A DNA stretch of 64,000 bases from NCBI RefSeq assembly GCF_011045215.1, contig NZ_CP049202.1; one strand, given 5' to 3'. The position numbers were made by a program. This stretch comes from Escherichia coli (lineage in GTDB: Bacteria > Pseudomonadota > Gammaproteobacteria > Enterobacterales > Enterobacteriaceae). Positions 24,001-27,000 of the stretch are shown here, piece after piece; position 1 is the stretch's first letter; the number at the start of each line of letters is the position of its first letter.

Positions 24001-27000
24001 CGCTGGCGGTTATCGGACCAATACCGGGTATTGTCTGAAGACGTTGTCCTGTCTCATCACGACTCAGTTCCTGCTCCAGTGCGATTTCAAGCTCGGTGAT
24101 CTGTCCGACAAGATAAATATAATGGGCATGTAAGCGCATCAGTAACTGCGCCAGATAGGGAGGAAGTTCGTTCTCTGCAAGTACTGTTGAAAGTCGTTTT
24201 ACCACTGCGACTCCTGTCGGCATACTGATGCCAAATTCCAGCAAAAAAGCATGCATCTGATTGGTCGTTTTGACTTTATCACTGACCAATGATTCCCTGA
24301 CCCGGTGAAGCGCCCGCATGGCCTGCTGAGCTTCTGTTCGTGGTTGCACAAATCGCATGGAGGGGCGAGATGCCGCTTCGCATATGGCTTCCGCATCGAC
24401 AAAATCATTCTTGTTGCTCTTAACAAAAGGGCGAACGAACTGCGGAGAAATCAATTTTGCTTCATGACCTAAATCAGCAATCCGGCGAGCCATAAAATGA
24501 GCTCCGGCGCAGGCTTCCATCATAACGGTAGACGAGGCACAGCCTGCCAGAAACTCAATAAGTTTGGTACGGGTAAACTTTTTACGCAGCAATACCTTGC
24601 CTGACTTATCTTGGCAGTGAATGTGAAAGGAATGCTTGCCAAGATCTATGCCAATAAGCGTAATGTTTTGCATGATGGTCTTCTCCATGAAAGAAAAACA
24701 CTCTACCAGGGTACAGCTCACAGGGTGGTGGGGACCATCTCATTAACCATGCTGTGAGACTGGTTAAAGATTGAGCTAATCAGGCGCATTCTGGCGAATT
24801 CTGAGGAATTGGCAGGATAGCTGGAGAGGATTTTTCGCGTAGGGGCGTTTGCTCCAGTGGCTTAGGGCAAATACCGACTATGAAGGAACCGCCAGTCCTG
24901 GATGCCGCTGGCGTCGGCAGTGTATTAGCTCATATGTGCGGGGCGCGGGATAGTTTCCAGCTCTTGCCCTGGGACATTGCGTTCGCGGTGTAGCTGTTGT
25001 TGTAGTTCAACCTTGCGTTGCTGGCGGCGGGTTTGTTCCATTGGGTCGCGGGTATCGGCGGCAGCAAGGCTATCAATGCCATCAATCTGACAATAGCCAA
25101 CAACCAGGTCTGTGGTCGGTTTCATCAGTCCCAGCATCATTTCTTCGCACGGTGGCGCGGTGCGGGTACGGATGAGCGCATCATCGACGATTTCGAAGGC
25201 CCAGCAATTAATCAGGTCTTCCAGTTCGAAATCTTCAATTAAGCCATCGTCAACATCTTCCTGGCAGACCTCAATCTGAATATCGCGGTACATCGCAATA
25301 TCCCGCTTCGTCCACTGGCTGAATGGCTTGTTTTGTAGTTGCCGTTGTTTTTCTTCAGGCGTTAAAGATGCGTTTTTCCCGGCCTTAAACAACCCCTGCG
25401 CGTCGTCTTTATTGCCATCATTATGTTTGTTTAAAAAGCTCATTATTCTTTTCCTTTGAATGGATTGTTCTTGCTCTCTAGCAACTTAGCGCGACCCAGC
25501 AACGTCCGGGCCAGCGCCTCCGCCTTCCTTAGCCTAAGCCCTGCGTCTTCTGCGTCCAGATCTACATTCCTGATAGCCTCTACAGCCTGCTCCGCTGCGT
25601 CCTGGGCGTGAATCCACTTAAATATGCCGATATGCTCACGAAAGTCTGGATGCTCATATTGCCAGCGGCAGATTGTTCTGAAGCTCGGCATGTCAGGCAT
25701 GTTGCCAATCTCTCTGAGACTATGGCCTTCAGCTACCAGCAAGCAGATTTCTTCAGCGATAGCGACCCCATACTTAGCGCTTTTTCTGCTTAAACTTGTG
25801 ACATCAACAGGTAAGTTATTGATTTCTTTATCATCACCCTTCATAATTACCCCCGAATTGATAGCGAATTGATAGCGAATTACCCCCGAATTACCCCCGA
25901 ATTACCCCCGAATTACCCCCGAATAACCATCATTTAGCCCTCGCCTACATCACACCCGACACTGGATAATTGGCTGTGTAGTTCGCGTTCAATCATCCGC
26001 AGCCGCTTGATAAACGCTCGTTCTTCAGCATTGCGGGGCGCATCTTTGGCATTAATATGTTTAAGCAGATCATGAAATGTGCCAAAAACATACTCAGCAA
26101 AGAGTCGAAGCTGTTGCCGTTTCATCGGCATATTGCCTGTGTTGCAATGGCGAATTTCATTAACCTGATTGCTGATAACTCTGGCCATTCCGGTACATAC
26201 ACGAAGCGCTAACATGCTAATTTCCTCTCAATCCGTATAATGGGAAGCAGATTTAAACATTGCTTTTCTGCTAACCACTTAAATCATTTTTCGCATTGTT
26301 GATTAGCCCGCCCGCAATGGACGGGTTTTTCTTTGCCTAGCACGGGATGCCAATGGCGTTCAGAATGCGTTTTCTCACGTCGGCATCCATTTCATAAGAC
26401 TTTGGTGTTTCAGTGCTCTGACGCGCTTCTGGTGCGTTGTCGGGCACTTTAACCTCGAAGTAATCCCGCTGTTCCTTAGTCAGGTAATCCCCGCTAAAAT
26501 AATCACCGAAAGCATCGTCCAGCTTATTATCGAAATAATCGAGGCCTGGTACTTTATTTTCTGGCTGCTGCCCCTGTTTCGGCAGAAGTCTAATAATCTC
26601 CAGCTTTATCTTCGCTGCCTGCTTATATAGTGCTTGCCTTTCGCTACCGGTTTTCTCGGCGGCGGCCTGTTCCAATATCTGGACCTGTTCAACAAGTTTT
26701 TGAATTTCGTCTTTCATAATTTGATCCCCGTTCATCAAATCATTTGTTCAGCCAGTTAAAGCCACGCCCTAATTTCCTTGCTACTTTGCCAGCAAGGAAA
26801 CGGCGACAAGTCTTTTCATCGAATACTTCCCTTGTTACGGAATCTGGTTTGCGCATCATTTCCGGAACTAAATCAGCCAGGCGCGCTGCTTCGCCATCCA
26901 GAATGTCCGCCAGCAAATCAGGAATGAGCTCAATTACTCGTTCTGCGGTTTTGTTCATCTCTTCATCAAATGCGCGTTTGTCTAATGTCTCCTGTGAAGG

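What the first reader, a model, noticed from the sequence alone, without database searches (positions are those of the whole stretch)
25845..25920. Array of 11-bp tandem repeats in the P4/PICI-like remnant
Seven head-to-tail 11-bp units (gaattaccccc with two gaattgatagc variants) sit immediately upstream of the terminase-small-subunit-like gene. The arrangement resembles iterons or a regulator-binding array. Unit number could vary by slippage.
Basis: seen in the sequence. Interest (0 to 1): 0.4.

Follow-up and report, generated by a model that had tools for sequence, protein, structure and literature searches.

The report
Phased 11-bp repeats before a satellite's terminase gene
A real, copy-number-variable array of 11-bp repeats (one per DNA turn) sits directly in front of a phage-satellite small-terminase gene and always travels with that gene, so it is most likely the DNA site that this protein ring grips to start packaging the satellite, not a replication-origin iteron set.

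Summary
Window 25845-25931 holds seven good 11-bp units plus one degenerate unit. They fill the 89-bp gap between two minus-strand genes and end in the ribosome-binding site and ATG of a 133-aa protein. That protein is a homologue of the phage Sf6 small terminase (TerS).

The array is non-coding and is found nowhere else in the window. Eleven type-1 instances, the window included, carry four alleles that differ by whole units: A4B2, A3B2, A2B3 and A2B2.

The main result is comparative. About ten TerS variants, down to 42% identity, occur in roughly 10-kb integrase/AlpA/TerS(/tape-measure) islands, mostly at eutA/eutB. Every one has a 5-10-unit array in 11-bp register at the same position. The unit sequence differs between variants: AATTCG, TTAGCGA, TCAGAGA, or phased A-tracts.

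Natural reassortants show that array type follows TerS alone. It does not follow the upstream gene, the downstream gene, AlpA, the integrase, the tape-measure protein or the repressor-like protein.

Best reading (about 0.5): a helically phased loading or pac site for the island's own TerS ring, of the SPP1 pac type. The iteron/origin and P4 readings are not supported. No binding or packaging data exist. This is a new variant of a known kind, of moderate to good interest.

The parts
25845..25931 (-). Array in 11-bp register. In gene orientation it reads GATGGTTATTC (degenerate, 25921-25931), then A = GGGGGTAATTC x4 (25877-25920), then B = GCTATCAATTC x2 (25855-25876), then GGGGGTAATT (25845-25854) running into the ATG. 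The last unit doubles as the Shine-Dalgarno sequence.
   Evidence: Lag-11 identity is 0.81 and the W/S Fourier peak is at 11.0 bp, exceeded by none of 4522 control windows. It is the most curved 90-bp stretch of the 64-kb window in a wedge model.
25443..25844 (-). 133-aa small-terminase-like protein of the Sf6 gp1 family, with an N-terminal HTH and a long helical hairpin. Proposed binder of the array.
   Evidence: Pfam PF20901 2e-12; phrog_1482 'terminase small subunit'; PDB 3HEF/4DYC E 2e-8; AlphaFold model pLDDT 84.5; the Foldseek top six hits are all Sf6 gp1, TM 0.54-0.59.
25934..26215 (-). 93-aa ORF of unknown function upstream of the array. Its stop codon marks the recombination boundary of the array+TerS module.
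24925..25443 (-). 172-aa ORF whose start overlaps the TerS stop (ATGA). It is 85% identical to the partner gene of a TTAGC-array island and only 28% identical to that of the other AATTC-array islands.
26337..27039 (-). Two small island ORFs (133 and 99 aa) of unknown function, in the same orientation.
27082..27303 (-). 73-aa AlpA/excisionase-like HTH protein, the first gene of the co-oriented cluster.
23669..24721 (-). IS110-family transposase. It bounds the remnant where complete relatives carry a tape-measure gene.
28026..29282 (+). Remains of an IS3-family element. It bounds the remnant on the side where complete relatives carry the integrase.

Best explanation
The array is the cis-acting recognition site of the island's own Sf6-type small terminase. 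It is a packaging-initiation (pac-type) loading site made of one short element per turn of the DNA helix.

Proposed steps, all inferred:
1. After a helper phage induces the island, the TerS-like protein assembles into a ring. Sf6 gp1 is an octamer.
2. The outward-facing HTH domains, spaced about one helical turn apart, engage successive 11-bp units. About 70-100 bp of phased, and in most types intrinsically curved, DNA is laid around the ring.
3. The complex recruits the helper's large terminase, which cuts nearby and packages island DNA by the headful mechanism.
4. Because the site ends in the SD/ATG of the TerS gene, binding could also feed back on TerS expression.

Unit number drifts by slippage or unequal exchange within a tolerated range of 5-10.

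Shown here: the array, its 11-bp register, its polymorphism, its conservation of position across diverged TerS types, its exclusive co-segregation with TerS, and the TerS fold. Inferred: binding, wrapping and the packaging role.
For: 1. The protein is a TerS homologue over both the HTH and the oligomerisation helices.
2. Every TerS variant examined has an array in 11-bp register, 5-10 units long, ending at its SD/ATG, but with a different unit sequence. Lag 11 is the best autocorrelation lag in 6 of 7 distinct types, and the best W/S (A/T versus G/C) lag in the seventh. Each type lies in the top 1% of 4522 control windows by at least one measure.
3. Natural reassortants:
   - L005 (AATTC array) and L016 (TCAGAGA array) share a nearly identical upstream gene, and the similarity ends at about its stop codon.
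   - The window pairs an AATTC array with the downstream gene of a TTAGC-type island.
   - In an all-against-all matrix only TerS partitions with array type. The AlpA-like protein is 98% identical across types, the tape-measure protein 91%, the integrase 94-96%, the 236-aa HTH protein 99%, and the upstream ORF 90%.
4. The AATTC, TCAGAGA and A-tract arrays are predicted to be strongly curved, with z from -3.5 to -8.6.
5. Precedent from the literature:
   - The SPP1/SF6 pac site spans the promoters and the start of terS, carries direct repeats, is intrinsically bent, and is modelled as about 100 bp wrapped on a ring whose HTHs are one helical turn apart (PMC4737164).
   - pac sites generally lie in or beside terS (PMC9611059).
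   - Sf6 TerS is an octamer.
6. The units occur nowhere else in the window or in a complete island.
Against: - There are no binding, packaging or helper-phage data.
- In P22 and in staphylococcal phages the pac site lies inside terS, not upstream of it. It could do so here too.
- The chimera L033 has the window-type HTH helices 2-3 but a TTAGCGA array. Array type therefore follows only the first ~30 codons of TerS. This fits either an N-terminal-arm specificity determinant or plain physical linkage.
- The TTAGC-type arrays are not predicted to be curved.
- Unit number is not fixed at the ring's subunit number.
- The phage TerS homologues checked (BPP-1, mEp021) have no such array.
- The curvature parameters were recalled from memory (Bolshoy 1991), not taken from a tool.
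Confidence: 0.5

Rival explanations
1. The array is an operator. The TerS-like HTH protein, or another factor, binds the repeats mainly to control transcription or translation of the TerS operon, for example as a roadblock just before its own start codon. There would be no role in packaging. This overlaps partly with the best explanation, since the SPP1 pac site does both.
For: - The array ends in the SD/ATG, so occupancy would affect expression.
- It co-segregates with TerS.
- Many family members are multi-HTH proteins that need not be terminases.
- Greive et al. propose a regulatory role for pac binding.
Against: - No promoter-like site lies on the gene strand in or after the array.
- Five to ten phased sites spanning 55-110 bp is unusual for an operator.
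- The protein keeps the TerS oligomerisation hairpin.
- The islands need some packaging signal, and no other candidate was seen.
Confidence: 0.17
2. The array is a functionless or nearly neutral slippage-prone minisatellite. It sits in an intercistronic gap and is carried along with the adjacent 5' end of the TerS gene by linkage.
For: - Perfect unit identity and gain or loss of whole units indicate recent slippage.
- The L033 chimera shows that co-inheritance extends only to the nearest ~30 codons.
Against: - An 11-bp register, 5-10 units, at the same position is kept across TerS types that share only 42-50% identity and have unrelated unit sequences. These include non-repeat phased A-tracts that slippage cannot generate.
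- The equally adjacent upstream gene does not co-segregate.
Confidence: 0.1
3. The array works at the RNA or single-strand level. The repeated SD-like G-runs, or a G-quadruplex formed by four G5 tracts, tune translation of TerS, and unit copy number acts as a switch.
For: - The A4 alleles (window and KSC9) carry a canonical G5-N6 x4 motif on the sense strand. G4-aware folding gives -53.7 kcal/mol, against -21.1 without G4.
- The A3 and A2 alleles lose the motif.
- The last unit is the SD.
Against: - Ordinary RNA structure is no better than shuffled sequence (z 0.37).
- G-runs are absent from the TTAGC and A-tract types, which keep the 11-bp register.
- Most type-1 alleles lack the G4 motif.
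Confidence: 0.08
4. The repeats are iterons of the island's replication origin.
For: Tandem direct repeats with helical phasing, plus bent DNA, are typical of origins. P4 and PICI origins do contain iterons (general knowledge).
Against: - No initiator, primase or helicase is detectable in the remnant or in most complete islands.
- In L014, which does carry helicase and DnaD-like genes, the array stays with TerS.
- Array type follows TerS only.
- There is no flanking AT-rich unwinding element in type 1 (46% GC).
Confidence: 0.05
5. The array is a landing pad for a host nucleoid protein (H-NS, IHF or Fis) or for a helper-phage factor that recognises curved DNA rather than sequence.
For: Several types are strongly curved by prediction, and A-tract versions have no repeated word.
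Against: - The TTAGC types are repeated words without predicted curvature.
- Type-specific unit sequences would not be needed for a shape reader.
- No phage or viral contig carries a related array. In particular there is no mimicry of a helper pac site.
Confidence: 0.07

Closest known systems
pac site of Bacillus phages SPP1/SF6 (pacL-pacC-pacR) bound by the small terminase G1P
   Same: The site lies at and just upstream of the start of the terS gene. It contains direct repeats and intrinsically bent DNA with A/T runs alternating with G/C. About 100 bp is proposed to wrap a ring of HTH domains spaced one helical turn apart (PMC4737164).
   Different: SPP1 has three pairs of different boxes spread over about 270 bp, not a head-to-tail array. 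It has promoters inside the site. Its TerS belongs to a different sequence family. Here there are 5-10 contiguous units in strict 11-bp register, with type-specific words and copy-number polymorphism. Binding here is untested.
Shigella phage Sf6 small terminase gp1 (PDB 3HEF, 4DYC)
   Same: It is the closest solved protein: 28% identity over about 110 residues, with the same HTH and helical hairpin, and it is of similar size (133 versus 140 aa).
   Different: Sf6 is a complete podovirus with terL next to terS. No array is known upstream of its gene 1 (my recollection, not tested here). The island protein's oligomeric state is unknown.
SaPI-type phage-inducible chromosomal islands that encode their own TerS
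   Same: Both are small integrative islands with an integrase, an excision/activator HTH protein and a TerS, but no TerL. The expected logic is the same: a satellite TerS redirects the helper's TerL to a satellite-specific pac site (general knowledge; for context).
   Different: The host, the TerS family and the gene set all differ. These islands often carry a tape-measure gene and have no recognisable pri-rep or capsid-size genes. No helper phage is known and induction is untested.
cosB R-sequences of lambda-like phages and enteric PICIs (Rpp system)
   Same: Both have multiple repeated TerS-binding elements next to the terminase genes.
   Different: In lambda the system is cos-type, with three 16-bp R sites, IHF bending and a winged-HTH Nu1 dimer (recalled knowledge, not checked here). 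No Rpp or Nu1 homologue is present here.
Iterons of plasmid, P4 and PICI replication origins
   Same: Both are tandem, helically phased direct repeats whose sequence co-evolves with a cognate DNA-binding protein.
   Different: The cognate protein here is a terminase homologue, not an initiator, and there is no adjacent rep gene or unwinding element.

Membership tests
Small terminase, Sf6 gp1 family (Pfam PF20901) | N-terminal helix-turn-helix DNA-binding domain with family sequence signature | tested here: met
   Pfam 2e-12, above the curated cut-off (47.6 versus 27 bits). phmmer against PDB Sf6 gp1, 2e-8, residues 23-107.
Small terminase, Sf6 gp1 family (Pfam PF20901) | Central helical hairpin that forms the oligomerisation core | tested here: met
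   The AlphaFold model has helices 66-92 and 101-126 with block-mean pLDDT of 93-95. Foldseek aligns 107-110 columns to Sf6 gp1 chains and finds no other significant match.
Small terminase, Sf6 gp1 family (Pfam PF20901) | Ring oligomer (8-12 subunits) that activates a large terminase | not testable with these tools
   Only a monomer model could be made. No TerL is present in the islands.
Small terminase, Sf6 gp1 family (Pfam PF20901) | Gene adjacent to a large-terminase gene | tested here: not met
   No TerL is found in the window remnant or in complete relatives. This is also the case for the satellite TerS of SaPIs, and adjacency is not universal.
pac-type packaging signal (SPP1-like) | Located in or next to the terS gene | tested here: met
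   The array abuts the TerS start codon in all ~10 variants.
pac-type packaging signal (SPP1-like) | Repeated elements and/or intrinsically bent DNA | tested here: inconclusive
   The 11-bp register is universal. Predicted curvature is strong in 5 of 7 types and absent in the two TTAGC types. The wedge parameters were recalled from memory.
pac-type packaging signal (SPP1-like) | Bound by the cognate TerS and required for packaging; terminase cut nearby | not testable with these tools
   This needs EMSA or footprinting, transduction assays and mapping of virion DNA ends.
Replication-origin iterons | Adjacent to, and co-varying with, an initiator gene, with an AT-rich unwinding region | tested here: not met
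   No initiator is detectable. The array follows TerS only. In L014 the helicase and DnaD-like genes lie 0.7-3.4 kb downstream of the TerS gene, while the array is upstream of it.
P4-like satellite | P4 alpha primase/helicase, sid/psu/delta and a cos site | tested here: not met
   Pfam, PHROG and NCBIfam scans of the remnant, and Pfam and PHROG scans of the complete island L001, found none of these.
PICI (phage-inducible chromosomal island) | About 10-15 kb, tyrosine integrase, AlpA-type regulator, packaging-redirection gene, specific att site | tested here: met
   The complete relatives L001, L011, L012 and L016-21 lie between eutA and eutB, with an IntZ-type integrase, an HTH_17 protein and TerS. 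The window copy lacks the integrase and is bounded by IS elements.
PICI (phage-inducible chromosomal island) | Own primase/replicase with an origin; induction by a helper phage | tested here: inconclusive
   No pri-rep gene is recognisable in most islands. Induction cannot be tested with these tools.
Contingency-locus tandem repeat (phase variation) | Unit number polymorphic between isolates | tested here: met
   Type 1 has alleles A4B2, A3B2, A2B3 and A2B2 in 11 instances. L025 is L016 plus one unit, and L028 is L027 plus one unit.
Contingency-locus tandem repeat (phase variation) | Unit number switches expression on and off | not testable with these tools
   There is only the indirect hint that the G4 motif exists solely in A4 alleles.

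The most novel reading that the evidence does not exclude
The array would be a natural, sequence-specific 'one element per HTH per helical turn' wrapping site for a small-terminase ring. It would be the first pac signal whose architecture mirrors the ring directly. Specificity would be set by the N-terminal arm and helix 1 of TerS (positions 22, 26, 27, 29). Unit number would be tuned by slippage. The whole would form an exchangeable array+TerS specificity cassette that lets a hitherto undescribed family of eut-integrated E. coli satellites, which also carry their own tape-measure gene, avoid cross-packaging.
Probability: 0.3. Interest if true: 0.75.

Novelty: new variant of a known kind. Interest (0 to 1): 0.55.

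Why it matters
How small terminases recognise viral DNA is still unresolved. A 2022 review states that the nucleosome-like, threading and interdigitation models all have weaknesses and that no TerS-DNA structure exists (PMC9611059).

This family offers a defined substrate of about 66-110 bp made of 5-10 units in helical register. The unit words are type-specific, and natural copy-number series and natural chimeras already exist. That makes the wrapping model directly testable by EMSA, footprinting or cryo-EM, and by array or TerS swaps.

The work also flags a rare island family. Each TerS type occurs in about 10-15 of 5426 complete E. coli genomes. The family is absent from the phage database and from the viral contigs and species-representative genomes scanned here. 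It combines a satellite TerS with a tape-measure gene.

Modular array+TerS cassettes could also serve as orthogonal packaging signals for engineered transducing particles.

Tried and rejected
- **Coding repeat: rejected.** Alleles differ by 11-bp steps, which are not multiples of three, and the flanking ORFs stay intact.
- **Promoter or terminator in the gap:** no consensus hit on the gene strand.
- **Stable RNA structure:** z 0.37.
- **Further copies of the units elsewhere in the window or in a complete island:** none found.
- **Mimicry of a helper-phage pac site:**
  - blastn of the remnant against 50,697 phage records found nothing.
  - An exact 18-mer scan of IMG/VR hit only an unrelated high-GC contig, L022.
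- **PICMI as the closest family: rejected.** These islands have no terS and no identified pac site. My recollection was wrong.
- **AlpA, the upstream ORF, the downstream ORF, the tape-measure protein, the integrase or the HTH_3 protein as array partner:** all excluded by reassortants.
- **HTH helix 3 as the specificity determinant:** contradicted by the L033 chimera.
- **Universal intrinsic curvature:** contradicted by the TTAGC types.
- **An array as a general feature of phage TerS of this family:** not seen in BPP-1 or mEp021.
- **Searches that found little:**
  - GTDB species representatives, by peptide pattern and by DNA pattern: nothing.
  - PLSDB: nothing.
  - IMG/VR peptide scan: one distant hit.
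  - NCBIfam and PADLOC: nothing informative.
  - The first alignment given to the search for related loci was too diverse to use.
  - The first curvature script timed out.
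Full report
**1. The observation**

Reading window 25500-26300 and running Tandem Repeats Finder confirm the array.
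- On the + strand it reads aattaccccc (25845-25854), gaattgatagc x2 (25855-25876) and gaattaccccc x4 (25877-25920).
- A degenerate eighth unit, gaataaccatc (25921-25931, 8 of 11 matches), follows.
- TRF gives period 11, 4.8 copies, 97% matches and score 99 for the A run. It gives 2.5 copies at 100% for the B run.
- The A unit with at most one mismatch occurs 7 times in 64 kb against 1.1 expected, and none of 100 shuffles reached 7. The B unit occurs exactly only here.

Both flanking genes are on the minus strand. In gene orientation the 89-bp gap reads: TAA-AT-GATGGTTATTC-(GGGGGTAATTC)x4-(GCTATCAATTC)x2-GGGGGTAATT-ATG.
- It starts at the stop codon of a 93-aa ORF (25934-26215).
- It ends at the ATG of a 133-aa ORF (25443-25844).
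- The last unit provides the Shine-Dalgarno G-run.
- No sigma-70-like promoter or intrinsic terminator is found on the gene strand in the gap, so the two genes are probably co-transcribed.

**2. The neighbouring gene**

The 133-aa protein is a homologue of a small terminase.
- It matches Pfam PF20901 (Sf6 terminase small subunit-like) at 2e-12, and PHROG 1482 'terminase small subunit'.
- It aligns to the solved Sf6 gp1 TerS over residues 23-107 (E 2e-8).
- An AlphaFold model (pLDDT 84.5, core above 90) shows an HTH (helices 27-38, 43-47, 55-64) and a long helical hairpin (66-92, 101-126).
- The only significant PDB fold matches are six Sf6 gp1 chains (probability 1.0, TM 0.54-0.59, 107-110 aligned columns).
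- Distant phage homologues are annotated as TerS: Bordetella BPP-1, Pseudomonas phages and the coliphage mEp021 group.

**3. The element**

The window holds only a remnant of about 3 kb (24.9-27.9 kb). It consists of an AlpA-like HTH gene, three small ORFs, TerS and one downstream ORF. An IS110-family element and an IS3-family element bound it.

Complete relatives are islands of about 10 kb, mostly inserted between eutA and eutB.
- They carry an IntZ-type integrase, the small HTH protein, 3-5 small ORFs, TerS, an overlapping downstream ORF and usually a 726-790-aa tape-measure protein (phrog_1538, 1e-103).
- Some also carry an HK97-gp10-like, HNH or HTH_3 protein.
- They have no TerL, capsid gene, P4 gene or Rpp. 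Most have no recognisable replication gene.

The family is rare.
- Each TerS type is found in about 10-15 of 5426 complete E. coli genomes.
- No phage record matches, no PLSDB plasmid matches, and no GTDB species-representative genome matches.
- A library search for satellites with a TerS and a tape-measure gene, and for CPZ-55 as a satellite, found no description of the family.

**4. Copy-number polymorphism**

Eleven instances of the same array type carry four alleles:

| Allele | Instances |
|---|---|
| A4B2 | window, KSC9 |
| A3B2 | CFIAFB20180540, one metagenome contig |
| A2B3 | E47, fM51a, Ec-RL2-1X |
| A2B2 | GF3-3, OW1E2, two Logan (public read-archive assembly) contigs |

Other array types vary in the same way. 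L025 is L016 plus one unit, and L028 is L027 plus one unit.

**5. Conservation of architecture but not of sequence**

Every TerS variant I could retrieve has an array at the same place and in the same 11-bp register. The words differ:

| Loci | TerS identity to window | Array |
|---|---|---|
| MB19 / L011 | 80% | CTTAGCGAnAn x5 |
| L009 | 73% | nTTAGCnAnnn x7 |
| L031 | 83% | TTAGC units x8 |
| L032 | 79% | CTTAGCGACAC / CTTAGTGAGn, 6-7 units |
| L033 | 89% | TTAGCGACCCC, four exact units plus a fifth merging with the SD, after one GCCAGAAAGGG |
| L016 / L025 | 46% | GTCAGAGAGGG / GTTAGCGAGGG x7-8 |
| L027 / L028 | not measured against the window (about 72% nucleotide identity to L016) | mixed TCAGAGA and TTAGCGA x7-8 |
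| L014 | 51% | A/T tracts phased every ~11 bp, no repeated word |
| L019 / L029 / L030 | 42% | A/T tracts phased every ~11 bp, no repeated word |

Quantitatively, lag 11 is the best identity-autocorrelation lag in 6 of 7 distinct types. In the seventh it is the best W/S (A/T versus G/C) lag. Each type lies in the top 1% of 4522 control 90-bp windows by at least one of two measures.

A wedge-model curvature calculation used Bolshoy parameters that I recalled from memory.
- It makes the window array the most curved 90-bp stretch in the 64-kb window: ratio 0.806 against a mean of 0.967, sd 0.025.
- It predicts strong curvature for the AATTC (z about -6), A-tract (-8.4 and -8.6) and TCAGAGA (-3.5) types.
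- It predicts none for the two TTAGC types tested (-0.7 and 0.1).

So the universal property is the helical register. Intrinsic bending is common but not universal.

**6. Which protein goes with the array**

The islands are mosaics, and this gives natural swap experiments.
- L005 (AATTC array) and L016 (TCAGAGA array) have nearly identical upstream genes. The DNA similarity stops at about the stop codon, just before the arrays.
- The window's downstream ORF is 85% identical to that of a TTAGC-type island and 28% identical to that of the other AATTC-type islands.
- In an all-against-all comparison of 19 loci, TerS is at least 95% identical within type 1 and at most 81% identical to every other type.
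- Every other protein is shared across array types: AlpA-like 98% (L017), the 103-aa ORF 99% (L021), the upstream ORF 90% (L021) but only 56% within type 1, tape-measure 91% (L016), integrase 94-96%, and the 236-aa HTH_3 protein 99% (L018).

TerS is therefore the only island protein that partitions with array type.

One caveat matters. The chimera L033 has window-type residues 47-133, including HTH helices 2-3 (PSFRTICRW). Its residues 1-30 are of the TTAGC type, and so is its array. Array type thus tracks the first ~30 codons. The type-specific positions are S22R, G26T, V27I and I29L. Either these residues, an N-terminal arm and the start of helix 1, set specificity, or the association is plain linkage.

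**7. Interpretation**

The best-supported reading is a pac-type loading site for the island's own TerS.

The precedent is the SPP1/SF6 pac site.
- It spans the promoters and the start of terS, has direct repeats and is intrinsically bent.
- It is modelled as about 100 bp wrapped around a ring whose HTH motifs are about one helical turn apart (PMC4737164).
- pac sites in general lie in or beside terS.
- Sf6 TerS is an octamer, and the arrays have 5-10 units, most often 7-8.

I put this reading at about 0.5. Nothing shows binding or packaging, no helper phage is known, and TerS-DNA binding is notoriously weak and its mode disputed.

Rivals:
- An autoregulatory operator, partly overlapping with the best reading (0.17).
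- A neutral minisatellite carried by linkage (0.10). The conserved register across unrelated words and phased A-tracts argues against it.
- An RNA or G4 translational switch (0.08). A canonical G5N6 x4 motif exists only in A4 alleles, with -53.7 versus -21.1 kcal/mol under G4-aware folding. It is not conserved across types, and ordinary RNA structure is insignificant.
- A host nucleoid-protein or helper-factor site (0.07).
- Origin iterons (0.05).

**8. Comparison with known systems, and novelty**

The array works like an SPP1-type pac site and like the satellite-TerS strategy of SaPIs. Membership in either is not established.
- The protein meets the sequence and fold criteria of the Sf6 gp1 family.
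- Ring formation, TerL activation and pac binding are untestable here.
- The P4 and iteron criteria were tested and not met.
- The phage TerS homologues examined have no such array.

Three things are new: a contiguous, strictly phased, type-specific and copy-number-polymorphic array; an exchangeable array+TerS cassette; and its home in an apparently undescribed eut-site island family that carries a tape-measure gene. I rate it a new variant of a known kind, interest 0.55. The main value is that it makes the disputed TerS-DNA recognition mechanism directly testable.

Noticed in passing
L001 3108-5288; also L006, L009, L011, L012, L016-L018, L031-L033: The complete relatives of the remnant are ~10-kb islands at eutA/eutB (IntZ-type integrase). 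They carry a full-length tape-measure protein of 726-790 aa (phrog_1538, 1e-103) beside the TerS gene, and some carry an HK97-gp10-like gene. They have no capsid, portal or TerL genes. A satellite with its own tape measure appears undescribed in the papers I could search.
   Followed up: partly
proteins P0012-P0157: Of the best 150 of 878 homologues of the TerS-like protein, most are 200-340-aa proteins with 2-4 tandem copies of the Sf6-TerS-type HTH domain (one has 7). This architecture would suit tandem DNA repeats. Their genomic context was not examined.
   Followed up: no
window 25877-25920 (minus strand): The four A units form a canonical G-quadruplex motif (G5-N6)x3-G5 on the sense strand. 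G4-aware folding gives -53.7 kcal/mol against -21.1 without G4. Only the A4 alleles (window, KSC9) have it; the A3 and A2 alleles do not.
   Followed up: partly
L006 ~6462-6489 (minus strand); L032 1406-1421; L019 ~5936-5952; L029 ~321-338: In the TTAGC and A-tract types a small GC hairpin sits at or inside the array: GCTAACGGGG..CCCCTTAGC in L006, and GGGGGTTTTCGCCCCC in L019. L029 has GGGGCTAAAACGGCCCC, which keeps the stem through changes on both sides. Its function is unknown.
   Followed up: no
L022 8151-8190 (IMGVR_UViG_3300032069_000007): An unrelated high-GC 80-kb viral contig contains GGGGGTAATTC-GGGGCTAATTC-GGGGGTAATTC in a gap with no convincing ORF and no TerS-like ORF among those listed nearby. 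It is probably coincidence but is the same 11-mer.
   Followed up: partly
window 27848-27940: This is the second most curved stretch near the island, in the non-coding region upstream of the AlpA-like gene (ratio 0.816-0.824). Part of that non-coding region (window ~27470-27950) is 83-89% identical to unannotated DNA of other islands. It may be the island's regulatory or att-proximal region.
   Followed up: no
window 29400-31400 and 14000-36700: The surroundings are IS-rich: IS110, IS3 and IS66 families, and a reverse-transcriptase ORF at 19188-19823. Region 29.4-31.4 kb (MipA/OmpV and others) is 99.5% identical to a 214-kb E. coli plasmid (NZ_CP010123, strain C5). The TerS remnant itself is in no PLSDB plasmid and is at most 97% identical to any complete E. 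coli genome, so the replicon of origin is unclear.
   Followed up: partly
L033 1501-1902: L033 carries a natural chimeric TerS. Residues 1-30 are of the TTAGC-array type and residues 47-133 are of the window (AATTC-array) type, paired with a TTAGCGACCCC repeat array (four exact units plus a fifth merging with the SD). It is a ready-made test of which part of TerS reads the array.
   Followed up: partly
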